This document shows positions 1-63,841 of a stretch of 63,841 nt of DNA, piece by piece. The notes under the pieces are model-generated. The model was not told where the DNA came from, did no database searches, and worked only from the letters and a program-made list of their open reading frames with translations. Source of the stretch: a virus (Duplodnaviria; Caudoviricetes). The DNA lies in IMG/VR virus record IMGVR_UViG_3300021168_000030, positions 1 to 63,841 of that record; one strand, given 5' to 3'. Numbering within the stretch: the stretch's first letter is position 1; each line of letters starts with the position of its first letter. The position numbers and the translations under genes are program-made.

Positions 1-3000
1 CGAGCCGCCGAGAAGGCGCGTATGGCCGAGCAGCAGCCGGTCGAGCACGGCCAGGCTTACGTGTCGCCCGAGACCGAGCCCGCCATGGCTGCGATGCCGG
101 CGCTGCTGACGCGCGAGACTGCCCAGAAGCTAACTCTTCGGCGGCTATCTCCAATGGCACGCGAAGCCCGCGCCGAGGCCGAGTCTCAGCCAGTCGTACG
201 CGAGCGCGCTAAAACTACTACAGTAGTAGAAGATGCTGGCGTCGAGAAGCCCCGATCGGCACAGACCACCAACAAAGAACGCATTTTAAGCGACCTAGAA
301 AGCAAAGTTTCCAACGGACTGATGACCGCTGCTGAGGCAGATCGGGTCTATGGGCGCAAGGAGCCCGGCATCAAAGCCGGCCGCCAACGCAAATTCTCTG
401 ATTTCGCGTCTTATATACGTGACCGCCTACAACGGGCCAGTGACCCCGATGTCGAGCGCGAACTATTGTCCCGTGCCGAGCAGATCCAGAGTGACAAAAA
501 ACTAACGACGGCCCAGAAGCTAGCGCAGTCGCGCGAGATTAATAAGGCACTGCAATCTGTCGGGCCGGAACACGCTGCGAAGCTGCGCGGTATCCTCAAT
601 GAGCTCGAAGGCAAAGACCGGGTCGCTTACGCACCACGATCAACCATTGAAAGTTTATATCATGATGAGCGTATAAACTACCCATTATGGGATATTCTTG
701 ACAGACCGTCTGGTCGAGCGAAAGAGCAAGAATATCTCGACCGGATCGCAAATGACCCGGTCGTTAAGGTCCGTCTGCCGCAAGCAGTGGCTCTCGCGCG
801 GCGGCTCAAGGAAATGCTTCCTTCGAGCTTGGAAGTGCTGCCTAAGCATATTGCCGAAGCGCAATTTGGTACAAGCTACCCAGACTATGCGGCAGGCGGC
901 TTTGATCCACGACACGATATTATTTTCCTTCATCCATCCGCTAGAGAAAGCAGCGCTTTAGAGGTTGTACTGCATGAAGGTATGCACGCAGTTACGACTC
1001 GGTTCCTGCGTGAAAAACCACAAAATTCAATGGCTGCGCTAAATGCTATCCGCGATGAACTGCGCCGATATAATGACCAAGCTAGCCAGGAAGGTACTTT
1101 TGACACCTTTGATTATGCCTTATCCAATAACGAAGAATTGCACACGATGCTGATGACCAGCCCGGTCATACAGAAGATCGCGGCTAGTATTACACCTTCC
1201 CGAGAATTCCGCGCCAAGATGCGTGAGCTGGGGTATGCCCCACAAGAGAGTCGGTCATTATGGAAGGCTTTCACTGGCTGGGTTCGACGGGCATTAGGAC
1301 TTAACCAGAAAGAAGTTGGCGACACATTACTTGATCATGCTCTGCGCCCACTTCAAGACATAACGGACAAGGCCGATAAGTTCAACCGGGGCAAGTTCCA
1401 ATTCATTAACGAGCAGGCGAGAGAAACCGCCGACGCAGCAATCAGCGCGATGCCTCGGTTTGGTCGGGACGATGTTAGTAGAGCGCTTAAGTATGTCGAG
1501 GTAGACCGCGCGCGGCGGATGCTATTGCAGGGAGTACCGACTGACGGCATCATTAAGTGGAACGGGGAGTTGTTTGAGAGCCGCGACAAGGAAGCGCCCG
1601 GTAATTCACTGAAAGACTATCGCACGGCATACGAGGCACAGGCTGCTAGGTCTAAGAGATTCAGCGACGAGAATGCTGATCGCGTCAAAGACATGATTGG
1701 TACAATGACTGAACCAGTCGCTCGATTAATGAATGATGCGACGTTGGCAGAGGCTCATCTGGGGCCCAGCGACCCGAATGCCAACGCGCATTTCAAAACC
1801 CGGGAGCAGCAGCAAGCGCTGAGCAACCTACAAACGCGCTACGACGCGCTCTCCGACAGTGATAAGAAGACCTATAGCAATTTCCGAGATTGGTATAGAG
1901 AGACTGACGGGATTGAGCGCGTCGCCAGATTTAAGTCGATGGTCAAAACTGCGCTTCCCGACGCGACTTCGACACAGGTGCGCGCTCTAGCTCAAGCACT
2001 GCGGACGATGCGGGGGATCAAGGAACTTATCGACGACCCCGATAAATCGCCGGTCGCCGCTGCATTCGCCGAGGCTTGGAATAGCAAGCGCGCGATCGCG
2101 CGTGAGATCGCTAAGGTCCACCGTGATGGCTTCGTCCAAGGTGACTATTTCCCACTCCGTAGATATGGCGACTACGTGATTCGCTACGGTACTAAGGGTA
2201 CCGACGATTATGGCGTGGAGCGGTTCGAACGCCGGGGTGAGGCTGAGGCGCGTCGGGCCGAGCTGGCGCGGGAAGGCGCCGAGCCGAGCAATGTCATGCT
2301 GGCAGACGATACGGCGCCCAGAAATATGGTTCCTACTGGCGTGATGGATGACCTGAACAGGGCGCTGAATAAGGCTGGCGGCTTCAGTGAGGACCAGCTT
2401 GACTCGGTGCGCGACGCCTTCGCGTCGATTATGCTGCAAAACGCGAGTCGGTCAGAGGCCGCGCGCACCCGGATGCGCCGCCAAGGAGTCAAGGGCGCGT
2501 CGATCGATCACGCCAAAGTTTTGTCGCGGGATTTCCTAGCTCTGTCGTCGAGGCTTGGCTACCTCGAACACGGACCCGATCGTGTGCAGGCGATCGCGGC
2601 GATGGGTCGGCAGGTTGGTTGGCTTGAGCGCAACGGCGCTGAGGGTGAGGGGATACGCGCTCAGTCTGTGTTGAACGAAATCAAACAGCGGCAGCCGGCT
2701 GGTGACGACGCGTCGAGTAAGTTCGCTGGCTTCACACGCAGGGCGTCGACGCTGGGGTATGTGCAGTCATTGATGTCGTTTTCACATCTGTTTACGTCGA
2801 CCTTCGAAGCGCACACGAACTCAATCGCTTTGATGGGCTCCCGTCACGGGCTCCGCGCTAATTTAGCATTGACGAAGGCCCTTAAGGACATCACGCCGAC
2901 AATGGCAGTGAATGCCGTCGGTAAGACGATAAGAGCCGCGAAGGCAGCAGCGTTTCTCGGACCCGAACTCAAGACTGCCGACTGGAATCTTTCGAACGTT

Positions 3001-4353: not shown

Positions 4354-4407
4354 CGGCCTTGCATTTCTGATTTAATGGTACTACTGTAGTAATTATAGGA
4401 GCGATAA

Positions 4408-7720: not shown

Positions 7721-10653
7721 ATCGGTTTACCTCCACTCAGTACGTTTAAGGGGCTGCCAGTGTTTGTTGTGGGATTACTATTGTCGTAGTTATAGTCTTC
7801 GAGATCAGGGTGGCTAGTCGGTATCTCGATGTAGTAAATCCGACCTGTTGTGTAGTGAGTGCCGGCGCCTAGCATGCCCCGTCCCTCTTTAGCGCCGTAG
7901 CGGGCCACTAGTTCGTTCTGATAGTCGCCCGAAGGTAAATTCCTATCGCGGCACCACGTCTGCCAGACGCTCTTGTCGATGCGCATCAACTTATCTTTCT
8001 GCGCAGTTTGAATAACAAGAGACTTTATGTTTGGATTTGGGAATGAGAGGACGCTAAATCTTGGATCAGGTTTTCCTTTACGTTGAAATATCGTAGTGAG
8101 CATACGCTCTCTCGTATGCTCCGTGTGAAATCTACCAAGAACGCGCTCAATATCCAGCTGGCCGTCATTGACGGGCAGGTCTCGCTTGCGCCTGTCGCGC
8201 GCCTGAGCAAGCGCTGCTTTTAAGTAGGCATCCATCGCGGGGATGTCGAAGCTCACAAGCTTTAACTTGTTCGCGATCCCCGCACCGGCTAGGATGCAGG
8301 TGATCCCGGCCATGTGAAACCGTTCCCCTGAAGAAGGATCGAGCTCCTCCTCTAGTTTCTTCCCGACCCTCGACACGACGCGTTGCGCCGTCTCGGCGTT
8401 GCTCGCCAGCCACTTAGCGTAGATGCGTCCGGCACTACCGTAGTTAGTCTCAGTCAGTTGGACCGTCTGCCCCGCGGCGATGCTAAGCGGCATCTGTGGG
8501 TGTGTGATCTGGAATTCGAACAGACGTAACGCGGCGGCGTCAGTCTCGGACCGCTCGGCAACGACGTGTTCCATTATCGCCGCATTGCTGGCCATCATCA
8601 TAATGGTTTTCCAATCCCTAGCTTCCCGTAACTTGATATCAGCAGTCATACGCGCCTTTTCCCGCCCTTGACCCATGTCAAAAAAGCCGCGGATACGTTT
8701 CTTTGCGTCGTCTTTGTCGAGCTGTACTTCATCCCAATAAGCCGGCATTATTTTAGTCTGTCCGACCTTATATAGTATCGCGTTGTCAGTATCCTTGAGC
8801 GACATCATGGAGTTCAACGGGTGGGAATAAACCGCCTGACCGACTCTGAACGCCGAGCTCTTCCCAACCGCGCTGTCGCGCGACCACGCCGATATGACCA
8901 CGCCTGACTGGCCGGTGAATTCGAGCAGCGGCGCAGCGAAGCTGACGGCAACGAGCACCTGCAAGTCGGGCCGGTTTTGCGTAACGAAGTCGCAGGCTTT
9001 ACGCCAGTCTTCCAACGTACCCCTCGGGCGATACCACTCGACTATCTGTGGGTCGCCGCCGGGCGCCGGCTCCTCGGTGCCGTCTGCCTTATAGAGCACG
9101 CCGCCGACCGCAAACCCGTCGTAGCCCCCATTCAAGTTCTTCGCCCATCCGAACGGGTAAGTTGCGATACTGCGAACAGCGCACATAGCGCGCAACTTGC
9201 TGATCCACGCCACGATGAAATCTCCGAAGTGCAAGGCGTTGTGTCTGTCGAGGGTGATGCCCTTAGGGCCAAAGTGCGCCATGATCCTGCCTGCCTCGGG
9301 CGATGGCGAGGCTGTCACAACGTCAAAGGTCTTCTTTTCAGGACCGAGATAGGTAAAGGTGATCTGATGGCCGGTCCCGGGGACCTCGTCGAGCACTGCC
9401 CGGTAGACATCGCCGGTGATCAGCCTAAGCCACTCAGCGTCGCCGGTTTTCTTATCCACGATCTCGCGCTGGATCTCGCCATTCTGGCGGCGGAAACCGC
9501 TAGGGAGTTCGTCGGTTCCCTCTGTCTCTTTCTCGACGCCTAGCGAGAAGGGAGAGCCGCCGATGCGCCCCCAAAACGGACAGCCCTGGCAAACCCCCGG
9601 CCGCATACTGTCGAACGTTTTACAGAGCGGCGCGCCGTTGCCCTTGCTCCGCTGCTCGTTGGCAGCACGTTGTAGCTCGGCGTCGGTCTCTGCTGGATCG
9701 TACGCGGGGTGCGCCTTACCGATCTCGTGGGCGTAATGCGCGCCATCACTACAGAAGCTAGCGAGAGTGATAAATCCGAGATACCAAAGCCGACGGTCAT
9801 CGTCGACGCCGTTGACTGCGAGCGACCGCTTGGCCTGCAGGCATTGGGTAGCAATCCGCTCGAAGGTGTGTTCGCGCCGAGATGAGACACCTGCCTGCGC
9901 AGCAGCGGTCAAGCTGCTCTTGCGCACCTTCGCCAGAGCCGGCGGCGTGCCAGCTAGCACATGTCGATCGAGCTGCTTGGTCGGCATATTGTCGATGGAG
10001 CGCTTCGATGCATAAGGACTAAGCGACCGCCATAGCTGGTTGTTGCCGTACTCACTACGGGAGTATTCGGTTAGCACGCGGACCGGCGCCGGCGATCCCG
10101 GGACCTTGCAGTTGAAAGTCCCTGGGAGACGCAATACCCGCGCGCTGTCGGTGGTCAGCCCTACGTCGCCCTTGGCGCCGTGATGGATCAGCGCTGCCTT
10201 GAGCGCCTCGGCATACGGTAGCCATTCATGGGGATCGAGAGGGTCTACGAAGACCCAATAGAGATGCAGGCCATAGCCGCTATTAACGATGAGGTTCGGC
10301 GGCAGTACCCCACTGTCAGTAAGCTTCTGAACGAATGCCAGCGCCTCGGCCTCGTCGGCGAAGGCTGTGCCGGGCCTCTTTTTGTCACCTGGGCGCGAGA
10401 TGTCAGCGTCAAACCAGAGACATTTGAACTGTTCGGCATTATCCTGCGTGCGCTGGCCGGCTTCGTGATACGACGCAACGGCGAACCATACATCGGCGCC
10501 TTTACGGGCTGCCCAACCGGCGTAGCCGACTGCAGAGCCTATATCGGCGCGCGGGAAAAATCTAGCGCTCATTCCCCTATCAGGGAACTTAAACGTAATG
10601 ACGAGGTAATTCCCCGGCGCGACAACGAGCGCTAAAAACTGTGCGGCGTCCAT
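7717..10653 (-). CDS. Primase-helicase (RepB/AEP-like primase + Cys motif + DUF927/Cch-like NTPase)
   Basis: WFDAD, SGYGLHLYW, RVLRLPGTFN; C..CQGC cluster; Walker A AVGKSS, Walker B YWDE. Confidence 0.85.
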   Translation of the reverse strand: MDAAQFLALVVAPGNYLVITFKFPDRGMSARFFPRADIGSAVGYAGWAARKGADVWFAVASYHEAGQRTQDNAEQFKCLWFDADISRPGDKKRPGTAFADEAEALAFVQKLTDSGVLPPNLIVNSGYGLHLYWVFVDPLDPHEWLPYAEALKAALIHHGAKGDVGLTTDSARVLRLPGTFNCKVPGSPAPVRVLTEYSRSEYGNNQLWRSLSPYASKRSIDNMPTKQLDRHVLAGTPPALAKVRKSSLTAAAQAGVSSRREHTFERIATQCLQAKRSLAVNGVDDDRRLWYLGFITLASFCSDGAHYAHEIGKAHPAYDPAETDAELQRAANEQRSKGNGAPLCKTFDSMRPGVCQGCPFWGRIGGSPFSLGVEKETEGTDELPSGFRRQNGEIQREIVDKKTGDAEWLRLITGDVYRAVLDEVPGTGHQITFTYLGPEKKTFDVVTASPSPEAGRIMAHFGPKGITLDRHNALHFGDFIVAWISKLRAMCAVRSIATYPFGWAKNLNGGYDGFAVGGVLYKADGTEEPAPGGDPQIVEWYRPRGTLEDWRKACDFVTQNRPDLQVLVAVSFAAPLLEFTGQSGVVISAWSRDSAVGKSSAFRVGQAVYSHPLNSMMSLKDTDNAILYKVGQTKIMPAYWDEVQLDKDDAKKRIRGFFDMGQGREKARMTADIKLREARDWKTIMMMASNAAIMEHVVAERSETDAAALRLFEFQITHPQMPLSIAAGQTVQLTETNYGSAGRIYAKWLASNAETAQRVVSRVGKKLEEELDPSSGERFHMAGITCILAGAGIANKLKLVSFDIPAMDAYLKAALAQARDRRKRDLPVNDGQLDIERVLGRFHTEHTRERMLTTIFQRKGKPDPRFSVLSFPNPNIKSLVIQTAQKDKLMRIDKSVWQTWCRDRNLPSGDYQNELVARYGAKEGRGMLGAGTHYTTGRIYYIEIPTSHPDLEDYNYDNSNPTTNTGSPLNVLSGGKPI

Positions 10654-12283: not shown

Positions 12284-12964
12284 TCACGCGGTCCGGACGC
12301 GCAAGACCCGGATCTGACTAACCTTCACCCCCGGAATGGGCTTCTTAGTCTCTTCGATGGTCGCCAGGACCGCGCCCTTAGCGACGCGCCGTTCAAGCAG
12401 ATCCCAGGCTTGGTTAGCCTGGATGTAATCGAGCGTCTGCTCCCAGTTATCGACCGTCGCCGAGGTTTCGACCTGCGTAAACGCCGTGCCCCGATCGGTT
12501 CTGAGTGATGCGGCGCCTAGCTTGTCGAGTTCGGCCATAAGGACCCCCTCGATCTTCTGTTGCAGCTCAAGGATTGGCGTGATACGCGTCTTAAAAGCCT
12601 CCTTCAACTCCGCGATCTTGTTACGTAGCTTGATGTAGTTCTCGACCAACTGCGCGGCATTGACCCCCGCTTGCTGCATTTCTACTACAGTAGTAGTTTC
12701 TGTTGGTGTTTCTTTTGGTGTTTCTTTTGGTTCACGTGCCTCGCTCTGCTCGTGCACTGCCTTCTTTACTCTCGCCATGACCTCCTCCGATGTGTTGAGT
12801 AGTGATTTCCGAAACTGATGCAGGTTCGCCGTAATGACGTGGTGTTCTAGTGGGTATGGCGCGTCGCAGTGCCACGGCATCCCGTCGAGGATCCAGCGTA
12901 CCGCCCAAGCCCGAGTGTTCGGTTTGAACCCGTCGAGCTGCCGGATGATGTCGTCAGCGGTCAT
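12284..12964 (-). CDS. Conserved phage replication-module protein
   Basis: YIKLRNK..LRTDRGT..WDLLERRVAK..PIPGV pattern, typical between SSB and SNF2 helicase genes. Start uncertain. Confidence 0.6.
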   Translation of the reverse strand: MTADDIIRQLDGFKPNTRAWAVRWILDGMPWHCDAPYPLEHHVITANLHQFRKSLLNTSEEVMARVKKAVHEQSEAREPKETPKETPTETTTVVEMQQAGVNAAQLVENYIKLRNKIAELKEAFKTRITPILELQQKIEGVLMAELDKLGAASLRTDRGTAFTQVETSATVDNWEQTLDYIQANQAWDLLERRVAKGAVLATIEETKKPIPGVKVSQIRVLRVRTA

Positions 12965-15200: not shown

Positions 15201-15226
15201 GGTTATCTACTACTGTAGTAGTTGTT

Positions 15227-15571: not shown

Positions 15572-15579
15572 TCGGAAAC

Positions 15580-16088: not shown

Positions 16089-16089
16089 A

Positions 16090-18136: not shown

Positions 18137-20061
18137 CACGAGTTCTCCTTCTTCTCAGCTGCCAATAGAGTCTTACCCCATCCCCCCTCTGACGCAAGGG
18201 GTAAGTCCGGCGCCCACGCCGGCCGTATTGCGAACTGCCGATCGAGCTCCTGATCCCACCACTCGACTTCTCTTTCAGGCACACAGTAGTCAAGGGAGTC
18301 GTGAGTAGATAGGAACGGATGGTAGCCTGTCAAGTCAAAAACACGCACGGCGATGTCAGTTACTACGATCCGTGAAAGAGCCTGCGAGATGTTCTCAATC
18401 GATTTCCCGCCATATATTTTGTAATACCCGCCGGTAGTTCGATTGTCGTATACTATAGCTGTAGTATTATCCGGCATACGCTCGAACCGTAAATTCGGAT
18501 ACATTAAACATAGGTAGTTCGGCAGCCACAGACAATCAAACCCAGGCTCGACCACTGGGAATGTGGACGCACGATAGGCGAGATAATCGATGTTCAACAG
18601 TTGGCGGACATTCTGAACACCCCGCGATACCACCAAGACATACTGAATTAGCTGCTCACCGCGGTGCCACAAGGTTCGGATCTCCGGGTACTCACTACGG
18701 TAGTGAGAAATGATCTCCACGGATTGCTCCAGGGTTACCTCGACACTGATCCCGCCGTTACCCAGGAACAACATATGCCGAAATTTCGGAGCGCCACAGC
18801 CATAGCCTAACCCCAGGATCCCTGTTTTGCCTACGAACCGCTCCTTGGTGTCGGCCTTGGTTATGGTTCGCTGGTATATAGTCGACGCAAACTCGGAATA
18901 GACATCGCGACCCTCGGCAAACGCCCTCAGAAGTTTCATGCACTGGGCTAGCCATGCGACCATGCGCGCCTCGATCTGTGAGGAGTCGCGGTGGACGATG
19001 CGATATCTCGGTGGCGCGGCGATGCCGGCGCGAATGGGCGACATCCTCGTGAAGTTCTGCCAGTTGGTCTTGTCGTCACCCGATAGCCTGTGCGTGCGCG
19101 CGCCAGAATACTTCAAGGGCACGGCGCCCCATCGCTCGCCATGTCCCCGCCAATCCAATAACGATAGGTCTAGTAGTTTCTGGGTGCGGGTTTCTTCGAG
19201 GGTGCTCTTTTGACTGGTACGCGCTGCTAGTATGGCCTGGACCTCGAGCGGCTGCTCAGGGTCCATGCATAGTTCCTTGAACTCGCGGTCGCCCTTGGCC
19301 AGCGCAAAGGTCTCCTTACCTGTAACGGGTGAGATCTTCAATGGCACGTCGACGCCGTAGCTCTCCAGCAAAGCAGCGAATTTCGGGTTGGACCGAAAGA
19401 CCTCCGGGTCGATAGCCGACACCCGGTCGAGGACCTCCTGCTTCCGGGCCCTGACTGCCCCCAGATGCACCGCCAGCGGCTCTGGGTCAAGTTTGACCTG
19501 GGGCAGTATGTGCATACGCGCCACGAGATCTATAAGGCGCAGCTCAGTAGGGCTAAAAATCTTTTTGAGTTTTAAGAATATACTATAGCAGTTCTCATTA
19601 TCGCGGTTGCAGTAGTCGGCGTATTCCCATAACTCAGGGTCAGTGAAATTTTCGAGCCGCTTACCGACGGCACGCACGACCGCGTCGCCTTTGTCTGGCA
19701 GCTCTAAGTATTTGGACACAGCGGCGAGCGACGATCTGCCGACAACAGCGTGCGTCGTCGCTCGCGCCATGCTCAGCGGGTCGAGGTATAACTCCGCGGC
19801 GATTCCGAAATGCCAGGCTAAAATGCTACCGTCGAACCTGACGTGATAGGCGCACAGTGCCAGCTTAGACCAGTCGTAGGAATTCAGTCTACGCCGCACG
19901 TTCTTATGACCAACTTCCACAGCTGATGGCTCGTCGTCGAGCTTGAACGAGCACATGATGACCTGGAACCGAGGGTCTAAGATATACTCGGCCGTGGTCA
20001 TCTTCTTGAGGCTGTAGTCTTTGTCGTAATAAGTTTCATAATCAATCGTTAGGATCGCCAT
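18136..20061 (-). CDS. DNA polymerase family A with 3'-5' exonuclease
   Basis: Exo I IDYET; motif A DSSQIEAR; motif B RFVGKTGILGLGYG; motif C THDS. Confidence 0.93.
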   Translation of the reverse strand: MAILTIDYETYYDKDYSLKKMTTAEYILDPRFQVIMCSFKLDDEPSAVEVGHKNVRRRLNSYDWSKLALCAYHVRFDGSILAWHFGIAAELYLDPLSMARATTHAVVGRSSLAAVSKYLELPDKGDAVVRAVGKRLENFTDPELWEYADYCNRDNENCYSIFLKLKKIFSPTELRLIDLVARMHILPQVKLDPEPLAVHLGAVRARKQEVLDRVSAIDPEVFRSNPKFAALLESYGVDVPLKISPVTGKETFALAKGDREFKELCMDPEQPLEVQAILAARTSQKSTLEETRTQKLLDLSLLDWRGHGERWGAVPLKYSGARTHRLSGDDKTNWQNFTRMSPIRAGIAAPPRYRIVHRDSSQIEARMVAWLAQCMKLLRAFAEGRDVYSEFASTIYQRTITKADTKERFVGKTGILGLGYGCGAPKFRHMLFLGNGGISVEVTLEQSVEIISHYRSEYPEIRTLWHRGEQLIQYVLVVSRGVQNVRQLLNIDYLAYRASTFPVVEPGFDCLWLPNYLCLMYPNLRFERMPDNTTAIVYDNRTTGGYYKIYGGKSIENISQALSRIVVTDIAVRVFDLTGYHPFLSTHDSLDYCVPEREVEWWDQELDRQFAIRPAWAPDLPLASEGGWGKTLLAAEKKENS

Positions 20062-20076
20062 ATTACCCTCAAAACC

Positions 20077-20117
20077 ACTACAGTAGTAATTATATGGTAT
20101 GCTGTCTTATTTCACAA
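20077..20117 (-). promoter_or_regulatory. Sigma70-type promoter for the polymerase operon, with the palindrome over the start site
   Basis: Minus strand TTGTGA-17 bp-TATAAT-t-ACTACTGTAGT. Confidence 0.65.
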
Positions 20118-20813: not shown

Positions 20814-20825
20814 GGTGTCTACTCC

Positions 20826-21020: not shown

Positions 21021-21030
21021 GTGACCCTCC

Positions 21031-22350
21031 CTATACCTTGATCCTCACGACGTCACCCCACGGTACCTCGTGCTCAGTGGTCGCGCACCAGATCACATGA
21101 TACCCCGGTTTCTCCACGGGGAACGAACCCAACAAGTCCGTCATGTACATCAGCATGTCCGGCTTAATGTCTTGCTCAGCTAACCATTCAAAGGGCGGCC
21201 GGAAGTCGGTCCCGCCGCCACCGACGCCGCCCTTGACGCGTATGGCTTCGAGCTCGTCGAACGAACTGGCTTCGTCGATGCGCTGGATCTTCGCGTCACA
21301 CCATATCAGGATCATGCGTCGCGGCCTGACATTCGCCAATATGCTACCGATCTCGGCGAAGAACGCAGATAGCTCCTTATCGCCAATGCTCCCCGAGCTA
21401 TCGATCGCACAGACCACTGTGCCAGCGCCATAGTCGGCACGGCCAGGAACTATAATGATAGGATTAAGCACTAAACGCCTCCTATTGGGCCTATTCCATG
21501 TCTCAGTCTTATTGCCAATGCGCCCCGTAATCAGCAATCTGAGCTGCTCACGCCATGACACTTGCGGTTCCAGGATCTCATCGACCATGCGCTGGAAGCT
21601 CGCCGGCATCTTGCCTATGGCCTTGGCGGCGGCCGCAGCGCGCGCAACAGCCTCGCGGTGCTCGCTCTCGCTAGGGAGATCCTCGCGGCCGGTCACCGTG
21701 TCGGTATACGGCTCCCGTAGTTCGTCAAACCTACCGCCATTGTTCGCGGCGTAATTATCTGGCTTACCAGGGACGCGCGAGCCCCGGGCCTGACCGTAAG
21801 TCGAATTACCTTGACCATGCTGACTCTGCTGACCATTACCACCCTGACCACCATTAGGCGGCGGCGGTACAAAATATTTCTCATAGAGATCCTCGACCAG
21901 ATCCTTGCCCGATACCTGGGGATCGTACAGCCACGCTGGATTGCACATCCCGATGTTGCTGGCTACTAAATCTGCGTTGATGATATAGTCCGCGCAGACG
22001 TTAAAGAGCTCCTGGTCCCAGTCGAGGTTTCTCAGCTTTCCTACACTACTGTAGTGCTTCATGCGGGATGGGTGCCTCTGGATCGCGTGGTAGACCTCGT
22101 GCGCCAGCACAAACACCCGCTCCGGGCCTTTTAGGGTCTGGAGGTAATCCGGGTTGTAGTATACGCGCCTACCATCGGTGGCCGCCGACGGAATCGCTGC
22201 AGTCGGATATTCCTCCATCTCGCTATAAAAATAATAGCAGAAGAATGGGCACGCGTTCATGAACCCAACGCGCGCGATCTCCATCATTTGTTTTTGATCA
22301 GGTGTTAGGGTTACCTTGAGGGGTAACCCACTATTCTGCATATTGCTCAT
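21031..22350 (-). CDS. DUF2201-type metallopeptidase + VWA-domain protein
   Basis: AATDG, LAHEVYH (HExxH), D.IIN; MIDAS IDSSGS, GGGGTDFRPPF, YMTD. Confidence 0.9.
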   Translation of the reverse strand: MSNMQNSGLPLKVTLTPDQKQMMEIARVGFMNACPFFCYYFYSEMEEYPTAAIPSAATDGRRVYYNPDYLQTLKGPERVFVLAHEVYHAIQRHPSRMKHYSSVGKLRNLDWDQELFNVCADYIINADLVASNIGMCNPAWLYDPQVSGKDLVEDLYEKYFVPPPPNGGQGGNGQQSQHGQGNSTYGQARGSRVPGKPDNYAANNGGRFDELREPYTDTVTGREDLPSESEHREAVARAAAAAKAIGKMPASFQRMVDEILEPQVSWREQLRLLITGRIGNKTETWNRPNRRRLVLNPIIIVPGRADYGAGTVVCAIDSSGSIGDKELSAFFAEIGSILANVRPRRMILIWCDAKIQRIDEASSFDELEAIRVKGGVGGGGTDFRPPFEWLAEQDIKPDMLMYMTDLLGSFPVEKPGYHVIWCATTEHEVPWGDVVRIKV

Positions 22351-22358
22351 TAGCTTTC

Positions 22359-23539: not shown

Positions 23540-23641
23540 TGGGTTACCTTTCTACTACAGTAGTGGTGGATTTTAGGGTAGAGCGTACCGTGAAGACCCG
23601 CCGTATCGACGGGTCTCTGCGCTGCGCTCCCTGGGAAGCAG

Positions 23642-25444: not shown

Positions 25445-25471
25445 CTTGATAGGTCCTCTCTACTACAGTAG

Positions 25472-25648
25472 TTATAGTTTTTGAATGTTTTCGATCGCGA
25501 TGAGTGTGCTCTCTACCATCACCGCAGTATCAGGATGCTTCGCCGCAATCGCCTTAAGGGCGTGAACAGCAACTCTCACTATTTGTGTGGCTTTCTGTTT
25601 CTCTTTGAAGAGCGCTTCGATGTCGCGTTGTATATCTGGAGATAGCAT
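25472..25648 (-). CDS. Small helical hypothetical protein
   Basis: AAGGA RBS before MLSPDIQ. Confidence 0.5.
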   Translation of the reverse strand: MLSPDIQRDIEALFKEKQKATQIVRVAVHALKAIAAKHPDTAVMVESTLIAIENIQKL

Positions 25649-25664
25649 GTTTGGTCCTTTGGTT

Positions 25665-25877: not shown

Positions 25878-25912
25878 GTGATTTGATCCTCGTTCTACTA
25901 CTACAGTAGTTT

Positions 25913-26128: not shown

Positions 26129-26279
26129 GTGATTTGATCCTCGTAAACTCGTGCGGTTGCCTTTGGTTCTACTACAGTAGTGATTTATAAGATCACGCCT
26201 ACCTGATAGGCGAGGATGGCTCCGAGTAGCATAGCCGCTACTATGAGTATGATGAACGCGAAGATCGTACTGAGCGTAT

Positions 26280-28900: not shown

Positions 28901-29153
28901 TGGGGTTTACTCCGTTAGGTTACACTACTGGATGGATGTTTTTTCGACTACTGTAGTGATAGATTTAGTGGTGCAGTGGACTACGGGTGGGACCGGGGGG
29001 AGGACATGGCCAGACGGGGGGGTCGGGGTGGCGGCCGCGTGGTGAAGCTCCCATATGGACGGCACCAAAAAATACCATTGCCATATTTATGTCAACTATG
29101 GTAGATAGCTGCACCGCGCCGAGCGGCGTCTCGGCAGCTCTAAGGGAAACTAA

Positions 29154-39076: not shown

Positions 39077-40064
39077 TGACAACGACAAATACCAGAATCA
39101 TATCCCTGCCGCAGTTCGGCGGCAGTCGGAGCATGCCGATGAGATCGCCCGCGAGTTGGGGTTTGCCAATGTAGACGGGCCGGCGCCGGCGGATGGCGAT
39201 GACCAAACCCCGTCGGCCGATGCAGCTACTACAGTAGTTGAGCCGTCTGCACCGCCCGCGCCGTCCGACGAGTGGGAGCAGCGCTATCGTACGCTGCAGG
39301 GCAAATACGATGCTGAACTGCCCGCGCTCCGCGGTGAGCTTACATCGTTGCGAAATCTCATCGCGAACATGCAGACGCAGACGCCGCGCGAGCCGGCGCC
39401 GGCCGCCGACACTCCGCATGATTGGGCTGCGCCCAAGGAAGATGTCGAGGCGTATGGCGACGATCTCATCCAGGCCGTGCGCCGCTGGGCGGCCGCGGAG
39501 TTTCAGCCACGGATTAAGAAGCTCGAAGACGAGCTTACGCAGGTGCGCGGCGGTCAGACTGAGATCCGGACTGAGAACGGGCAGCAGCGCGTCATGAACG
39601 CGCTCGACGCCGATCCCGCGCTCGCCGGCAAATGGCGCGTGACTAATGACGATCCAGAATTTATTGCCTGGCTGAACCAGGTCGATCCCTTCGCTGGAGC
39701 GCTGCGTATGCAGCTCCTCCACGATGCCTTTGCCCGTGGCGATGCGGTTCGCACGGGCAATTTCTTTAAGACGTTCATCGCAGAGCATACCGCAGTGACC
39801 CAGCCTGCGGCGGCTCCTGGCCAGACCCCTCCGACAGAGGTCGCGGCCCGGCCGTCGCTGGAAGATATGGCTGCGCCTGGCCGGCTCTCCGGCCCGGCGC
39901 CTGGGAATGGCGGCGCTCCTACAGAGAAACGTATTTGGTCTAACCGCGAAATCAGTGCGTTCTACCGTGACTGCACCAGTGGGAAGTATGACGCGCGCGA
40001 GGCGGATAAGGTCCGCATCGAGGCGGACATATTCTCGGCAGCCGCGGAGGGACGCGTCCGGTAA
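39066..40064 (+). CDS. Capsid scaffolding protein
   Basis: WEQRYRTLQGKY.AE coiled coil; C-terminal I..A..EGRV; directly before the capsid gene. Confidence 0.8.
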   Translation: MPLDDNDKYQNHIPAAVRRQSEHADEIARELGFANVDGPAPADGDDQTPSADAATTVVEPSAPPAPSDEWEQRYRTLQGKYDAELPALRGELTSLRNLIANMQTQTPREPAPAADTPHDWAAPKEDVEAYGDDLIQAVRRWAAAEFQPRIKKLEDELTQVRGGQTEIRTENGQQRVMNALDADPALAGKWRVTNDDPEFIAWLNQVDPFAGALRMQLLHDAFARGDAVRTGNFFKTFIAEHTAVTQPAAAPGQTPPTEVAARPSLEDMAAPGRLSGPAPGNGGAPTEKRIWSNREISAFYRDCTSGKYDAREADKVRIEADIFSAAAEGRVR

Positions 40065-41126: not shown

Positions 41127-41167
41127 TTAGTAACTATAGTAGTGGTGATTAACCTAGGAGAGTAAAC

Positions 41168-46468: not shown

Positions 46469-47800
46469 ATGTTACGCTTAGCTACTACGGTAGTGGTATT
46501 TTTGCTTGGGTTATGGGCTGCACCGGCGCATGCCGATAACCCGGGTGTTTGCCCGGTGAATACGGTGTACGCTGGTCCGGGCAGCGGCGGCGGGGCGGTT
46601 CCTAAGTGTCGACCGTTGGTAGATGCGGATATGCCGGGCGCACTCTCTTCGTTCCCGGATACTTGCCCGGCTGGTACGGTCTATGCTGGCCCGCCTACCG
46701 GCACTCCGTCGGTGGGGACGTGCCGCCCATTGGTCTTCAGTGACATATCTGCGCTGCTGCCGATTCCGAGTACCTGCTTAGCAAACACTATATTCGCTGG
46801 GCCACCCAGCGGTGTCGCGGTGGCGCCGGCGTGTCGCGGGCTGGTGTCGAATGACTTCCCGCCGTCGCTTACGATGGGCGGGGATTTGAGTGGTCCGTTT
46901 CAAAATCCGACGGTTTCTAGGATCCTTGGGAAGGTGCCGGCCGCGTCGGCAACGACCGACACTACCAACGCCAACAATATCGTTAATGGCGTTTTAAACT
47001 CTAGATTGCTGCAAGGCGCTTATCCTGGAATTTCTCAGGCTGGATTTCCGACGCTGACAGTTCCTAATCTAGTTGTCGACTCTACATTAGGCGGCAGTGG
47101 TAATATCGCGATAGACAATAACCATCTCTTCGTTATAAAAAATACTGGTGGCGCGTATTCTTCTGCGTTGTCATTAGATAGTGGTAATAACCTTCTTGTC
47201 GGCGGTGTACTTGCTTCCGGCGGTGTGTATTTTTATTCTAACAATAGGGAGCAAGGGCATTTTGACGGGGGTGGGAATATATTTTTAGGTGGAAATACAG
47301 TACAACTCGGATCGTCGCCTAGACAACTTATATATGCGTCGACTGGTACTCCTGGTTTATATGTCCTTAACTCCCCCGCAAATAGCTATGTTGCGGCGGC
47401 AGACAATGGGACCGTCATCTTACATATATCTACCGGGGAGAACTGCACATATAGCGGTGGCGCGAGCATCGGGTGTTCTTCCGATAAGAGCTATAAAACT
47501 GGAAAGCCGCTAAAGGCCGCCGGGATCGTACCGAGCGCGCAGGCTACTGACACAATGACATCGGCGATCAATGCGCTGACTCCGATTTCTTATACCTGGA
47601 ACGGCGATAAAAATCACCAACAGCATCTTGGGTTCAATGCTGAGGACGTTGGGGCGATATTCCCGCAGCTCGTACACACTAGCCCGGACGGGACTATGAC
47701 CCTTGATTACGCGGGGCTGATCGCGCCGCTGGTCCAGTCGGTACAGGAGCTCTCCGCGCGCGTCGATGCTTTGGAGGCGGCGGCGAAAAAGGGGCCCTAG
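46469..47800 (+). CDS. Tail fibre with S74-type intramolecular chaperone and a signal peptide
   Basis: MLRLATTVVVFLLGLWAAPAHA-D; SSDKSYK...L.P.SY.W...GF.AEDV..IFP.LV...LDY..L..PLV.SVQEL..RV..LE. Confidence 0.85.
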   Translation: MLRLATTVVVFLLGLWAAPAHADNPGVCPVNTVYAGPGSGGGAVPKCRPLVDADMPGALSSFPDTCPAGTVYAGPPTGTPSVGTCRPLVFSDISALLPIPSTCLANTIFAGPPSGVAVAPACRGLVSNDFPPSLTMGGDLSGPFQNPTVSRILGKVPAASATTDTTNANNIVNGVLNSRLLQGAYPGISQAGFPTLTVPNLVVDSTLGGSGNIAIDNNHLFVIKNTGGAYSSALSLDSGNNLLVGGVLASGGVYFYSNNREQGHFDGGGNIFLGGNTVQLGSSPRQLIYASTGTPGLYVLNSPANSYVAAADNGTVILHISTGENCTYSGGASIGCSSDKSYKTGKPLKAAGIVPSAQATDTMTSAINALTPISYTWNGDKNHQQHLGFNAEDVGAIFPQLVHTSPDGTMTLDYAGLIAPLVQSVQELSARVDALEAAAKKGP

Positions 47801-47862
47801 CAACTACAGTTGCTATAGCTTTTCCCCGGTGCTATATACTACAGTAGTGGTAGGAGGTTTTG

Positions 47863-61844: not shown

Positions 61845-63841
61845 ATGGCCGTCGATCTCGAAAACCCGGAAGACCTGCAAGACAATATCGAAGCCGGTGA
61901 CCAAGGCGATACTGGGGCCGCTCCGTCTGCGCTGTCCCTACCTGCTACGCGGGAGTCCGGCGCCGTTGGCCCAACTAACTACGGTAGTGCGGCGCCGCAA
62001 GGGCGTCGCCTCCCTGGTTATCAGCCAGGAGCTCCTCTAGACCCTAACGCGCAACCGTTCTTTGTAGGCAGTGGACCTCCACCAGAGCAGAGTAAATCCG
62101 CGTTCAAGGATTTCGCGCGCCAGACCTACGGCGCGCTCCTCGAAGCGGGCCAGGCGACCGTCGGCGCTGCCAGCGCGGCCGAGCGCGCGCTCGGTATGAA
62201 CCCCGACATCATCGCGCACACCGAGCAGACTCGGCGCGCCGTCGGTGACATCATAGCCCAGAATCTCCAGGCGATGAGCCCGGAGGCCCAGAAGGCTGCT
62301 CACTCTTCGCTGTTCGGGGGTAAGGATGAGAGCGGCGGAGACATCCCGACGCCTGGCGAAGTCGGCTGGGGGAGTTACCTCGGCGCGACGGCGGCGAGTT
62401 TCATCCCGTCGGCCATTCTCGCTATCGTACCGCCTGCAGTCCTTGGGCCGGCCGGCCTCGCCATAACGGGCGCGGCGTTCGGCGCGCAGCAGGCGGGCGC
62501 GGCCTATGAGAAACTGGTCGATCAGATAGACAAGGCCACGCCCGAAGACATGATGGATTCACCTGTTTACGCCGAGTTGCGTAAGCAGGGCGTGGACAAC
62601 ATCAACGCGAAGCGGCAGGTCGTAGCGTCGATCGCGCCGCCTATTATAGCAATGCAAGCCGCGGTCGGCGCGGCCGCAGGGGCGGGCGCTGGTGGGCTTC
62701 TTACGAAGGGCGCACTTGGAGCCGCAGGCGCGAGTGTGGCGCGGCGGGCGGGCATTGGCGCGGCCGAGGGTGCCGCTACGATGGGCGGGCAAGCCGCGGC
62801 CGGCAACGCCCTCGAACAGTCGGCATCGATGCAGGCCGGCCTGCAGAAAGAATTCGACCCCTCAGAGACCGCGCGCGCATTGGTCACCGGCGGCGTCGGC
62901 GGCGCGCTTGTCGGATCGGTAGGCGGTGCGCTGCATCGCGGTGAAACATCCAGTGAAACACCCAGGGTAACGCCCGAGGGTGTCACAGATGATCAGCACG
63001 CGGCGCTGACCGAGGCGCTGCAGATAGCTGGGCCGCTTAAGCAGTTGACGTATCAGCCGGACCGCACACAGGGCCCGGCCACGCCGTGGGCCTCAACCGG
63101 CGAGGGTATGGTTCTAGGCCAGGGCGGCTTTACGACCAGCCCGTCAAGGCCGGCTGCGCTGACGGTGCCCGAGCTCCCCGGCGACATCAAGGCGCAGGTC
63201 GCCGCGCTGGCCGATCCGGAGAACCTCAAGGATTCGGTGTTCATCCCGAAGGGAACATCAATGCCGAAGGATATCCCGGACGGTGTTACGCGTGTCGTCC
63301 GGCCGGAGGGTACGCTCCTCACCAACAACCAGGCGAAGGCGGCGCTATTCCGCCGGCCGGGGGAGCTCAACGACACGATCTTGGCGCATGTCCTCGACTA
63401 CCCCGAGACCAAAGATCAGGCGGCTGCGTCGGGCGCGCCGCGGGTTATCCAGGGTAAGGACGCCGACGGCAATGTGGTCTATGAGGCGGCAGTTAGTCCG
63501 CAAGGCGAGGACGCGGCGCGCACGGCCGCGGCAGCGCAGGTCCTACCGCATGGCTCTGTAGAGGCAACCACCCCCGATGCCGCGGTCGCACGGCGTCTGC
63601 CACCGAGCGGCGGCGAGCCGGCGAAACCATCAGGCGGCATGAACCGGGGGAACCTGGTAGATGCCTTGGAGAAACAGGGCGAGGATCGCAAGGCGCTCAA
63701 CCGAATGAATATCGGCGCTCTGCGCGATCGCTACGACGAGCTCAATACGCCGGCGGTGCCGGCGCCGCGTGAGTTTCGTCCTGAAGCCCCGGCCGAGCCT
63801 CCTATCAAACCTACTCTCGGTGATCAATCAACGGCAGCGCC
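61845..63841 (+). CDS. Giant internal virion protein, N-terminal part (runs off the window end)
   Basis: GAGG RBS and ATG at 61845; start and end translate in one frame (MAVDLENP...DQSTAA); absent from the ORF track, consistent with no stop. Confidence 0.75.
   Translation, partial: MAVDLENPEDLQDNIEAGDQGDTGAAPSALSLPATRESGAVGPTNYGSAAPQGRRLPGYQPGAPLDPNAQPFFVGSGPPPEQSKSAFKDFARQTYGALLEAGQATVGAASAAERALGMNPDIIAHTEQTRRAVGDIIAQNLQAMSPEAQKAAHSSLFGGKDESGGDIPTPGEVGWGSYLGATAASFIPSAILAIVPPAVLGPAGLAITGAAFGAQQAGAAYEKLVDQIDKATPEDMMDSPVYAELRKQGVDNINAKRQVVASIAPPIIAMQAAVGAAAGAGAGGLLTKGALGAAGASVARRAGIGAAEGAATMGGQAAAGNALEQSASMQAGLQKEFDPSETARALVTGGVGGALVGSVGGALHRGETSSETPRVTPEGVTDDQHAALTEALQIAGPLKQLTYQPDRTQGPATPWASTGEGMVLGQGGFTTSPSRPAALTVPELPGDIKAQVAALADPENLKDSVFIPKGTSMPKDIPDGVTRVVRPEGTLLTNNQAKAALFRRPGELNDTILAHVLDYPETKDQAAASGAPRVIQGKDADGNVVYEAAVSPQGEDAARTAAAAQVLPHGSVEATTPDAAVARRLPPSGGEPAKPSGGMNRGNLVDALEKQGEDRKALNRMNIGALRDRYDELNTPAVPAPREFRPEAPAEPPIKPTLGDQSTAA

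What the first reader, a model, noticed from the sequence alone, without database searches (positions are those of the whole stretch)
217..61988. Genome-wide palindrome ACTAC-N-GTAGT at promoters, RBSs and inside genes
Seen: 20 exact copies by eye (16 with central A/T), often extended to CTACTACWGTAGTAG, plus one-mismatch variants at 10054, 27219, 32503 and 41133. A rough composition estimate (assuming ~58% GC) gives about 0.04 expected. Nine copies lie just upstream of starts (holin, helicase, polymerase, DUF3150, AAA, both mini-proteins, 28900, 47863); at 20077 it follows a TTGTGA-17-TATAAT promoter. The rest are in coding DNA, giving TTVV in unrelated proteins (giant protein, 12284 ORF, terS, scaffold, fibre, nozzle) or Y-[SGR]-S in another frame, so selection acts on DNA. 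Inference: sites for a dimeric phage protein working as operator plus roadblock (analogous to mycobacteriophage stoperators, but symmetric), or parS-like/genome-organising sites. Candidate binders are the RHH (27047) and wHTH (30908) proteins. No integrase is visible, so the state being maintained is unclear.
Basis: partly seen in the sequence, partly recalled or inferred. Interest (0 to 1): 0.82.

Follow-up and report, generated by a model that had tools for sequence, protein, structure and literature searches.

The report
Genome-wide palindrome sites in a phage
This phage genome carries 20 identical copies of a short DNA palindrome, and each related phage has its own version, so the copies are most likely docking sites for a fast-evolving phage protein that controls the genome, a layout seen before in other phages but still unexplained.

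Summary
ACTAC-N-GTAGT occurs 20 times (0.03 expected) and survives codon-aware shuffles. Only 4 one-mismatch copies exist. Nine copies sit 8-46 nt before start codons.

New here:
- The window is a complete 63.8-kb virus record from a large soil podovirus family. Of 17 whole or near-whole genomes read, 16 carry their own dispersed inverted repeat: 6-27 copies under the patterns counted, about 20 in nine of them.
- Arms and spacer length (0-4) differ between genomes and change independently of the core phylogeny. Some genomes have one-arm hybrids that run with transcription.
- Sites fill the gap between a stop codon and the next ribosome-binding site. In some relatives they contain that site. 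Long genes also carry them.

Best reading (0.42): duplex-DNA sites for a fast-evolving phage regulator, like stoperators but symmetric. A candidate binder is the 157-aa protein at 30908-31381. It is predicted to fold like MarR regulators and is found only in genomes whose sites have a TAC-GTA core (8 of 8).

RNA-level, single-strand/nick and promoter readings are not excluded. This scan has reported such palindrome arrays in at least 28 other phage genomes, one with a motif I also saw in relatives. The Cluster O 17-bp repeats are the published analogue.

The parts
217..227 (.). site 1, ACTACAGTAGT, inside the giant virion protein ORF (1-4353 +), read as T-T-V-V
4380..4390 (.). site 2, intergenic, 17 nt before the 4408 start (+), 26 nt after the giant ORF stop
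8434..8444 (.). site 3 (centre C), inside the DUF927 primase/helicase gene 7717-10653 (-)
12684..12694 (.). site 4, inside ORF 12284-12964 (-)
15209..15219 (.). site 5, junction: 7 nt after the stop of 15227-15571 and 8 nt before the SNF2 helicase start (15200, -)
18694..18704 (.). site 6 (centre G), inside the family-A DNA polymerase gene 18136-20061 (-)
20077..20087 (.). site 7, 15 nt before the polymerase start; 1 nt downstream of the -10 of the TTGTGA-17-TATAAT match (20117-20089, - strand)
22045..22055 (.). site 8, inside the DUF2201 metallopeptidase/VWA gene 21031-22350 (-)
23554..23564 (.). site 9, 14 nt before the start of 22592-23539 (-)
25462..25472 (.). site 10, junction: overlaps the stop of 25472-25648 by 1 nt, 17 nt before the ATPase start (25444, -)
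25900..25910 (.). site 11, junction, 22 nt before the 25877 start (-)
26171..26181 (.). site 12, 42 nt before the 26128 start (-)
28947..28957 (.). site 13, in the divergent early control region: 46 nt before the 28900 start (-) and 196 nt before the 29154 start (+)
35205..35215 (.). site 14, inside the small ORF upstream of the large terminase (35156-35680 -, putative terS), 52 nt before the 35153 start; 7 of 15 members of this gene family carry a site inside the gene
39228..39238 (.). site 15, inside the gene before the capsid gene (39066-40064 +, scaffold by position), in a variable linker; G001 has its own site about 13 alignment columns away in the same linker
46484..46494 (.). site 16 (centre G), codons 6-9 of 46469-47800 (+)
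47838..47848. site 17, 14 nt before the 47863 start (+); by eye, TTGCTA, 16 nt, CTATAT lies directly upstream
53555..53565 (.). site 18, inside 52070-53857 (+)
55898..55908 (.). site 19, in the last codons of the acyltransferase-like gene 55462-55944, 25 nt before the 55934 start (+)
61978..61988 (.). site 20 (centre G), inside the N-terminal part of the giant protein ORF (61845-63839 +)
41133..41143 (.). one-mismatch copy ACTATAGTAGT, 6 nt after the capsid gene stop (41126) and 24 nt before the 41168 start; 8 of 16 genomes have a site right after this gene
27219..27229 (.). one-mismatch copy ACTATAGTAGT inside the RHH-like ORF 27047-27403 (-)
10054..10064 (.). one-mismatch copy ACTACGGGAGT inside the primase/helicase gene
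32503..32513 (.). one-mismatch copy CCTACAGTAGT inside 31981-32553 (+)
30908..31381 (+). candidate reader of the sites: 157-aa protein predicted as a winged helix plus a long C-terminal helix, nearest PDB folds MarR-family regulators

Best explanation
The palindromes are recognition sites on duplex DNA for one fast-evolving, phage-encoded, sequence-specific protein. The protein probably binds as two like halves. It reads the whole genome at about one site per 3 kb.

Sites are placed wherever the compact genome tolerates them. In operons that is the few bases between one gene's stop codon and the next gene's ribosome-binding site. In long genes it is a linker region. Bound protein would act as an operator where a promoter is adjacent, as at 20077. 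Elsewhere it would block transcribing polymerase. That makes the system a symmetric counterpart of the stoperator/immunity-repressor system of Cluster A mycobacteriophages.

The rapid retuning of the site between relatives is what competition between co-infecting or resident relatives would favour (heteroimmunity). In this window the best candidate for the protein is the MarR-like winged-helix protein encoded at 30908-31381.

Shown: the sites, the selection on them, their family-wide retuning and their placement. Inferred: binding to duplex DNA, the blocking action, and the identity of the protein.
For: 1. Twenty exact copies against 4 one-mismatch copies, kept against codon-aware shuffles. 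Isolated half-sites are not enriched: 106 outside palindromes against 106 expected. So the dyad as a whole is the unit that is read.

2. The trait is family-wide and genome-specific. Of 17 genomes read whole or nearly whole, 16 show an enriched inverted repeat or near-repeat. Examples: ACTAC-N/NN-GTAGT, CACTAG|CTAGTG, ACTCC-N-GGAGT, TAGTAC-NN-GTACTA, CCCTAC-N-GTAGGG and TTACCT-N3/4-AGGTAA (in cultured Rhizobium phage RHph_TM3_14A). Counts under the patterns used run from 6 to 27 per genome; nine genomes have 18-27.

3. Motif distance does not follow core phylogeny (rho 0.125, P 0.20). That pattern fits a specificity under diversifying selection.

4. Intrinsic hairpins are weak. For sites with 4 nt of flank the median RNA MFE is -3.5 kcal/mol in G000, and the centred hairpin is the MFE in 7 of 20. 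The medians are -0.8 in G008 and -0.3 in G010. There is no sense-strand G-U excess at the flanks: 59 G-U against 74 A-C over four flank positions. Sequence is therefore read, not structure alone.

5. Sites cluster in the divergent early control region: 3 sites between the two divergent genes in G002 and G008, and two sites 20 bp apart in G003.

6. The protein of 30908-31381 gives a confident model (pLDDT 85.8). Its best PDB matches are MarR-family repressors (MepR, AdcR, FabT, SlyA, MarR; E about 1e-3, probability 1.0).
- It belongs to a small unnamed family: 236 clusters at E <= 0.001 among 1.84 billion representatives.
- It occurs in 8 of 17 genomes, and all 8 have a TAC...GTA site core. Of the 9 genomes without it, 2 have that full core (table 8/0 against 2/7, hand-computed Fisher P about 0.002; the genomes are not independent).
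- Its members are 26-36% identical, while the capsid proteins are about 62-73% identical.

7. A temperate or carried state is plausible. A PF00589 integrase is present in 4 of 16 close relatives. More distant capsid relatives lie in Bradyrhizobium and Candidimonas isolate assemblies and in MAG contigs. In 4 of 5 checked genomes an integrase match lies on the contig whose number matches the capsid contig's accession (my inference; the contig map was not checked).

8. Stoperators have the same overall signature: 20-30 dispersed sites, most not at promoters, with a consensus that differs between heteroimmune relatives (PMC6550527, passages read).
Against: 1. Spacer length varies within single genomes: 11 N1 and 10 N2 in G001; 16 N1 and 6 N0 in G004; 5 N3 and 16-20 N4 in TM3_14A. 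That is unusual for a rigid dimer on duplex DNA.

2. Five genomes (G006, G008, G010, G012, G014) carry hybrids in which only one arm has changed. The hybrids are co-oriented with the local gene, 49 to 13, or 28 to 10 without G008. G006 and G012 are near-identical. A symmetric homodimer has no reason to produce this.

3. The centre base is a purine on one DNA strand genome-wide in four genomes (50 of 65) and overall (65 of 98), regardless of gene direction. Duplex binding by a symmetric protein cannot sense that.

4. G000 itself has no integrase and no recognisable repressor family hit.

5. The candidate protein is absent from 9 of 17 genomes. Eight of those nine still have arrays. No universal binder emerged from the covariation screen. 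Its best hit was an acyltransferase-like protein, which probably reflects clade structure.

6. In G004, G006, G015 and TM3_14A the 3' arm is the Shine-Dalgarno sequence itself. In early gene arrays nearly every cistron has a site next to its ribosome-binding site. Both facts also fit an RNA-level role.
Confidence: 0.42

Rival explanations
1. RNA-level element. The transcribed repeat, read as a short hairpin or as a sequence by a phage RNA-binding protein or nuclease, acts at cistron junctions. It would set translation of the downstream gene (sequestering or presenting the ribosome-binding site, or enforcing coupling to the upstream ribosome), or define and protect mRNA ends.
For: - Junction geometry in 54 co-directional junction sites: the stop codon lies a median 3.5 nt before the site and the start codon a median 14 nt after it.
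- In G004, G006, G015 and TM3_14A the 3' arm is GGAG or AGGT at 5-10 nt from the start, and the 5' arm is its complement.
- In G008, 10 sites in 4.8 kb precede nearly every early cistron, each 0-3 nt from the Shine-Dalgarno sequence, with no conserved promoter upstream.
- Variable loop length is natural for a hairpin.
- Hybrids run with transcription, 49 to 13.
- The Cluster K start-associated sequences are a published precedent for repeated elements at ribosome-binding sites (PMC3203893, passages read).
Against: - Predicted hairpins are weak or absent: medians -3.5, -0.8 and -0.3 kcal/mol in G000, G008 and G010.
- The hybrids place C-A, U-C or A-G mismatches in the sense-strand stem.
- There is no G-U excess on the sense strand.
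- Sites inside long genes are the rule: giant gene 15 of 17, primase 12 of 15, polymerase 8 of 15. They are not followed by starts.
- Rapid retuning between relatives has no obvious benefit for a translation or stability signal.
- The centre-base bias follows the DNA strand, not the sense strand.
Confidence: 0.22
2. Strand-specific DNA signal. The sites are read on single-stranded or nicked DNA. They would be either recognition sites of a phage nickase, as in T5, phiKMV-like and tf/LUZ24-like phages, or hairpin signals for lagging-strand priming by the phage primase.
For: - The statistics match known nick motifs. Phage tf has 14 copies of TACT/RTGMC with only 3 further one-substitution sites, at similar positions in relatives, with a consensus that differs between relatives (PMC3517423, passages read). 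Phage Rembedalsseter has 13 copies of WACTRTGAC against 0.7 expected (PMC11780129, passages read).
- Density is about one per 3 kb, and spacing is more even than random in 4 of 7 genomes at P < 0.05 (CV 0.53-0.66), with a fifth at P 0.07.
- Long genes carry sites at about the genome-wide density.
- The centre base is a purine on one DNA strand whatever the gene direction (65 to 33).
- Contig ends of relatives lie within 130 nt of a site in 4 of 24 cases against 1.0 expected (weak).
- A VRR-NUC-like nuclease and a PD-(D/E)XK nuclease are conserved in the family.
Against: - Known nick motifs are asymmetric and all on one strand. A palindrome would be cut on both strands.
- Site density rises to about one per 0.5 kb in early gene arrays, which neither priming nor nicking requires.
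- The hybrids follow gene direction rather than one DNA strand in G010, G014 and G006 (28 to 10 against 22 to 16).
- The replication origin seems to have its own iterons (5 copies of an 11-mer at 27467-27611).
- No raw reads or RNA runs were available to look for ends.
Confidence: 0.15
3. Phage-specific promoters, or junction cassettes. The repeat would be the core of a promoter read by a phage-modified polymerase. Alternatively it is a standard linker that spreads by recombination and marks points of module exchange, like the promoter-early stem-loops of T4-type phages.
For: - Exact copies before many genes and some inside upstream genes, with a genome-specific sequence, resemble T7-type promoter sets (recalled, not from a call).
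- In G004 the unit ACTCC-N-GGAG-TAA carries the upstream stop, the downstream Shine-Dalgarno sequence and a fixed distance to the start. That looks like a standard junction.
- G000 encodes an ECF-type sigma factor.
Against: - No polymerase was found. The giant protein shows only an N-terminal likeness to the non-catalytic N-terminal domain of N4 gp50 (E 0.0018). It shows none to the N4 polymerase domain (hhalign probability 0.2%).
- The sigma factor has no detectable homologue in G001-G005.
- Where the Shine-Dalgarno sequence lies inside the site, a start point downstream of the site would exclude it from the mRNA.
- A perfect palindrome gives no direction.
- Sites inside 7-kb genes are not junctions.
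Confidence: 0.12

Closest known systems
17-bp dyad repeats of Cluster O mycobacteriophages (TGTTCGG-N3-CCGAACA; PMC4351075, passages read)
   Same: - Dozens of copies spread over the genome (34 in Corndog).
- Invariant arms, with only 3 one-mismatch copies.
- A variable centre.
- Sites both between ORFs and inside ORFs near their 5' ends.
- No link of centre asymmetry to transcription direction.
- Function unknown.
   Different: - Different sequence, host phylum and virion type.
- One fixed spacer length and one motif across the five published genomes.
- Here the arms and spacer length are retuned from genome to genome, hybrids occur, and in some relatives the site contains the ribosome-binding site.
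Stoperators and immunity repressor of Cluster A mycobacteriophages (PMC6550527, passages read; PMC9283540, search listing only)
   Same: - 20-30 dispersed sites.
- Most are not at promoters.
- The consensus differs between heteroimmune relatives.
- Sites are oriented with transcription, as the hybrids are here.
   Different: - Stoperators are 13-14 bp without dyad symmetry and are bound by a monomeric two-domain repressor in temperate phages.
- Here most genomes have perfect dyads.
- G000 has no integrase.
- No binding has been shown.
Nick-associated motifs of T5-, phiKMV- and tf/LUZ24-like phages (PMC3517423 and PMC11780129, passages read)
   Same: - About 10-14 exact copies of a 9-mer or longer word.
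- Almost no near-copies.
- Similar positions in relatives.
- A consensus that drifts between relatives.
- Function unknown.
   Different: - Those motifs are asymmetric and all on one strand, with physical nicks demonstrated.
- Here the site is a palindrome, and only its centre base is strand-biased.
- Nicks are untested.
Start-associated sequences (SAS/ESAS) of Cluster K mycobacteriophages (PMC3203893, passages read)
   Same: - A repeated 13-bp unit at the ribosome-binding site, 3-7 bp before start codons.
- It sometimes holds the upstream stop codon.
- A linked inverted repeat has a variable spacer, and its consensus differs between subclusters. This resembles G004 and TM3_14A.
   Different: - SAS is non-palindromic, in one orientation, and confined to the non-structural half.
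- In G000 the site does not contain the Shine-Dalgarno sequence, and half of the sites are inside genes.

Membership tests
Stoperator / immunity-repressor system (Cluster A mycobacteriophages) | 20-30 copies of one short site dispersed over the genome, mostly not at promoters | tested here: met
   20 exact copies. 1 of 9 sites in 14.5-30.5 kb lies next to a sigma-70-like match.
Stoperator / immunity-repressor system (Cluster A mycobacteriophages) | Site lacks dyad symmetry and is oriented with transcription | tested here: not met
   The G000 sites are perfect dyads. Only the hybrid sites of five relatives are oriented, 49 to 13.
Stoperator / immunity-repressor system (Cluster A mycobacteriophages) | Consensus differs between related phages together with the repressor | tested here: inconclusive
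   The consensus differs between relatives. The candidate protein is fast-evolving and co-occurs with one core type, but binding is untested.
Stoperator / immunity-repressor system (Cluster A mycobacteriophages) | Temperate life cycle (integrase or partition genes) | tested here: not met
   No PF00589 candidate in G000. Present in 4 of 16 close relatives. Partition genes were not searched.
Cluster O-type dispersed dyad repeats | Tens of copies with invariant inverted arms and a variable centre, between and inside ORFs | tested here: met
   Comparison with PMC4351075 (passages read).
Nick-associated motifs (T5, phiKMV-like, tf-like) | All copies on one DNA strand | tested here: not met
   The palindrome reads the same on both strands. 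Only the centre base is biased, 15 purines of 20 on the + strand.
Nick-associated motifs (T5, phiKMV-like, tf-like) | Physical single-strand breaks at the motif in virion DNA | not testable with these tools
   Only assembled contigs of soil metagenomes hold the sequence.
N4-type hairpin promoters | A virion RNA polymerase with a T7-like catalytic domain | tested here: not met
   A profile of the giant proteins against the N4 mini-vRNAP domain gives hhalign probability 0.2%. Pfam finds only LPD39. Only an N-terminal motif matches N4 gp50.
Cluster K start-associated sequences | Unit contains the Shine-Dalgarno sequence 3-7 nt before the start | tested here: not met
   In G000 the sites end 8-46 nt before starts and the Shine-Dalgarno sequence follows them. 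The feature is met in relatives G004 and TM3_14A.
MarR-family winged-helix regulators (for the 30908-31381 protein) | Winged-helix fold like solved MarR proteins | tested here: met
   Model pLDDT 85.8. Top Foldseek PDB hits are MepR, AdcR, FabT, HcaR, SlyA and MarR, E 0.9-5e-3, TM 0.35-0.5.
MarR-family winged-helix regulators (for the 30908-31381 protein) | Sequence match to the Pfam/NCBIfam MarR models | tested here: not met
   No MarR hit in Pfam, PHROGs or NCBIfam. Only a marginal GabR wHTH hit, E 0.04.
MarR-family winged-helix regulators (for the 30908-31381 protein) | Binds a palindromic operator as a homodimer | not testable with these tools
   Needs EMSA or footprinting.

The most novel reading that the evidence does not exclude
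The sites are 'self' tags read along the whole chromosome by a phage machine, for example the conserved helicase/nuclease set, the packaging motor or the replisome. In this they would resemble Chi sites or DNA-uptake sequences. The tags would tell the phage's own DNA from host DNA and from co-infecting relatives. The genome-specific versions would then be dialects. The one-arm hybrids would be caught intermediates of a dialect switch: ACTAC/GTAGT to ACTAC/GGAGT to ACTCC/GGAGT.
Probability: 0.1. Interest if true: 0.85.

Novelty: new variant of a known kind. Interest (0 to 1): 0.6.

Why it matters
Dispersed exact palindromes have been noted in a few phage groups (Cluster O) and repeatedly in this scan. 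No reader protein or function is known for any of them.

This family gives an unusually good handle on the question:
- It has hundreds of relatives: 449 capsid relatives in one collection.
- At least ten different site versions occur among 17 genomes.
- Apparent intermediates of specificity change are visible.
- There is a candidate reader protein.
- There is a cultured member on a harmless host (Rhizobium phage RHph_TM3_14A).

If the immunity reading is right, it would also show how specificity and some twenty sites change together.

Tried and rejected
Searches and folds that led nowhere
- Near-DNA search against named phages: no match.
- N4-like hairpin promoters: rejected, because no polymerase domain was found.
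It has no detectable homologue in G001-G005, and the site is not bipartite.
- Independent Chi-like half-sites: rejected, because isolated half-sites are not enriched.
- The motif as a -10 element (TAnnnT): it fits G000, G001, G008, G010, G011 and G014 but not G003, G004, G005 or TM3_14A (by eye). Dropped.
- tRNA and Rfam scans of the window: nothing found.
- Family searches of 50 window ORFs and 10 ORFs of relatives found no repressor, methyltransferase or nickase.
- The 271-aa first gene of the leftward early operon folds as an all-helical protein with no PDB match.
- Covariation screen of 30 core families against motif distance: the top hit was an acyltransferase-like protein (partial r 0.45, permutation P 0.0035 before correcting for about 30 tests). 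I read that as clade structure. The primase and the 454-aa neighbour gave P about 0.05.

Sequencing runs and reads
- Six soil-metagenome holders were listed, all kept as contigs. No RNA holder was listed.
- Read laying was not used, because contigs cannot show molecule ends.

Complex prediction
- Two copies of the 157-aa protein gave no verdict. I draw nothing from it.

Papers
- A search for the cultured relative's name found 0 papers.
- A search on HMO-2011 with palindrome terms found nothing specific.
- I found no paper describing this family's repeats in searches.
- Supplementary files were not opened. The Cluster A orientation counts (Fig. S1 of PMC6550527) and the Cluster K site tables were therefore not seen.

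Full report
What is there

The window is a whole IMG/VR virus record of 63,841 bp, rated 100% complete. ACTACNGTAGT occurs 20 times at the coordinates given, against 0.03 expected from dinucleotide shuffles.

Eleven sites lie inside genes as I called them. Permuting synonymous codons gives 0.435 such sites on average. Permuting codons gives 0.042. None of 1000 shuffles of either kind reaches 11.

Nine sites are intergenic, although only 8.9% of the window is non-coding. They end 8-46 nt before a start codon, and a tenth ends 25 nt before one. The base before the core is a pyrimidine in 17 of 20 sites. The base after it is a purine in 16 of 20 (counted). The full 15-bp form occurs only 3 times. 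Isolated half-sites are not enriched.

The genome

The capsid protein is 54% identical to that of Rhizobium phage RHph_TM3_14A. It is more distantly related to capsids of HMO-2011-type and phiM6/CHOED-like podoviruses.

Genes run on the + strand at 1-6581 (giant protein end, lysis region). They run on the - strand at 6909-28900, and on the + strand from 29154 (small early genes, then structural genes; the terminase genes lie on -).

The - block holds these genes:
- a DUF927 primase/helicase;
- an ECF-type sigma factor;
- an SNF2 helicase;
- a VRR-NUC-like nuclease;
- a PD-(D/E)XK nuclease;
- a family-A polymerase;
- a DUF2201/VWA protein;
- an ATPase.

The giant protein shows only LPD39 in Pfam, plus an N-terminal stretch like the N-terminal domain of N4 gp50. 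It has no likeness to the N4 polymerase domain.

The family

449 capsid relatives were found in IMG/VR, and the best 80 were kept. Twelve of those 80 loci hold the same 11-mer. I read 15 relatives whole or nearly whole, plus the cultured Rhizobium phage. Sixteen of the 17 genomes show their own enriched inverted repeat:

| Genome | Repeat | Copies |
|---|---|---|
| G001 | ACTAC-N/NN-GTAGT | 11 + 10 |
| G002 | CTAC-N/0-GTAG | 26 |
| G003 | CACTAG\|CTAGTG | 20 |
| G004 | ACTCC-N/0-GGAGT | 16 + 6 |
| G015 | ACTCC-N-GGAGT | 13 |
| G005 | TAGTAC-NN-GTACTA | 19 |
| G007 | CCCTAC-NN-GTAGGG | 9 |
| G009 | CACTAC-N/NN-GTAGTG | 9 |
| G011 | CCCTAC-N/0-GTAGGG | 17-18 |
| TM3_14A | TTACCT-N3/4-AGGTAA | about 25 |

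Five genomes carry hybrids in which one arm differs. G008 has ACTAC-N-GTAAT and G010 has ACTAC-N-GTCGT. G014 has CCCTAC-N-GTCGGG, and G006 and G012 have ACTAC-N-GGAGT. G013 showed no clear motif.

Motif distance does not track core phylogeny (rho 0.125).

The hybrids run with the local gene in 49 of 62 cases, so the sense strand reads 5'-ACTAC-N-changed arm. Without G008, whose sites are nearly all in one gene block, the count is 28 of 38. With the symmetric forms they make series such as ACTAC/GTAGT, ACTAC/GGAGT, ACTCC/GGAGT.

Placement

In 54 junctions between co-directional genes, the site starts a median 3.5 nt after the stop codon. It ends a median 14 nt before the next start. It therefore fills the space before the ribosome-binding site.

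In G004, G006, G015 and TM3_14A the 3' arm is itself the Shine-Dalgarno sequence, 5-10 nt from the start. In G004 the upstream stop (TAA) follows GGAG directly.

In early arrays of small genes nearly every cistron has a site, with no conserved -35/-10 upstream. G008 has 10 sites in 4.8 kb.

Long genes almost always carry internal sites: the giant gene in 15 of 17 members, the primase in 12 of 15 and the polymerase in 8 of 15. A site follows the capsid gene stop in 8 of 16 genomes. In-gene sites sit in linkers or variable spots and move between orthologues.

Spacing is more even than random in 4 of 7 genomes at P < 0.05. A fifth gives P 0.07. G003 and G004 do not show it.

Tests between readings

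Hairpins are weak. Median RNA MFE is -3.5 kcal/mol in G000, -0.8 in G008 and -0.3 in G010. Flanks show no sense-strand G-U excess. Pure structure is therefore unlikely, and a sequence-specific reader is needed.

Spacer-length variation and oriented hybrids argue against a rigid symmetric dimer.

The centre base is a purine on the capsid-sense DNA strand in 65 of 98 single-spacer sites. In G000, G001, G002 and G011 the figure is 50 of 65. The bias holds whatever the gene direction; relative to the sense strand it is 52 to 46. I cannot explain this.

Only one of nine sites in 14.5-30.5 kb abuts a sigma-70-like promoter.

Life style

G000 has no tyrosine integrase, but G001, G005, G011 and G013 do. 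Capsid relatives at 45-65% identity lie in bacterial assemblies:
- two Bradyrhizobium isolates have phage-sized contigs, and in the one checked an integrase match lies at the contig's end;
- a Candidimonas isolate scaffold and two large MAG contigs each have an integrase match on the contig number that fits their accession. That assignment is my inference.

A carried or lysogenic state is thus available to the wider group.

Candidate reader

The 157-aa protein of 30908-31381 gives a confident winged-helix model with a long C-terminal helix. Its best PDB matches are MarR-family repressors. No sequence library names it. It belongs to a small family of 236 representative clusters.

With a profile of 150 homologues it is found in 8 of 17 genomes: G000, G001, G002, G005, G008, G010, G011 and G014. 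All eight have TAC...GTA site cores. In G002, G008, G010 and G011 its gene faces the 271-aa early gene across a control region. That region holds sites in G002, G008 and G011. The other nine genomes lack it, although eight of them have arrays, so it cannot be the universal reader. A fast-evolving or replaced reader is what an immunity-type system would show.

The RHH-like ORF has only marginal hits and no orthologues in G001-G005.

Verdict

I rank the readings as follows:

| Reading | Confidence |
|---|---|
| Duplex-DNA regulator sites (symmetric stoperator-like) | 0.42 |
| RNA-level junction element | 0.22 |
| Strand-specific DNA signal (nick or priming) | 0.15 |
| Promoter or junction cassette | 0.12 |

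The remaining 0.09 is left open.

Earlier notes of this scan report the same kind of array in at least 28 other phage genomes. One carries GTTACC-N6-GGTAAC, a motif I also saw in TM3_14A and in locus L139. Those notes also pointed me to the Cluster O paper, which I then read in passages.

Noticed in passing
window 27467-27611: Five exact direct copies of the 11-mer CCAAACTGACC (- strand), spaced 57, 43, 17 and 17 nt, in the non-coding stretch between the RHH-like ORF and the 271-aa gene. They look like iterons of a replication origin and are distinct from the palindromes.
   Followed up: partly
window 61845-63839 and 1-4353: The giant virion protein ORF runs off both ends of the record. The two open frames do not join in frame (1997 + 4353 nt), so the record is permuted and probably lacks or doubles a base or more at the junction. 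Residues 203-399 of the N-terminal part resemble residues 285-479 of N4 gp50 (E 0.0018).
   Followed up: partly
window 10083, 38411, 39179-39190, 39392-39403, 53503: A second over-represented word, CCGGCGCCGGC: 7 matches on the two strands against 0.27 expected. Most are in the region of the gene before the capsid gene. It may be coding (Pro/Ala-rich linkers).
   Followed up: no
all single-spacer sites of G000, G001, G002 and G011: The centre base of the palindrome is a purine on the capsid-sense DNA strand in 50 of 65 sites, whatever the direction of the local gene. No reading offered here explains it.
   Followed up: partly
relative G009 (L115-L118): Besides 9 palindromes, this genome has about 35 copies of a non-palindromic word: CGGTTCTCTC (21 copies) or CGGTACTCTC (12 copies). 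It is possibly a different regulatory motif.
   Followed up: no
ends of relatives' contigs (G001, G002, G010): Contig ends lie within 130 nt of a site in 4 of 24 ends, against 1.0 expected (P about 0.02). This could be chance, an assembly effect, or physical breaks at the sites.
   Followed up: partly
window 14500-30500: Sigma-70-like promoter matches are fewer than in shuffles (4 against a mean of 12.2). This hints that host-type promoters are avoided or unusual in this region.
   Followed up: no
window 30270-30809: An HslV/proteasome-like peptidase gene (PHROG 1040, E 5.5e-31) lies among the early genes, just before the winged-helix gene.
   Followed up: no
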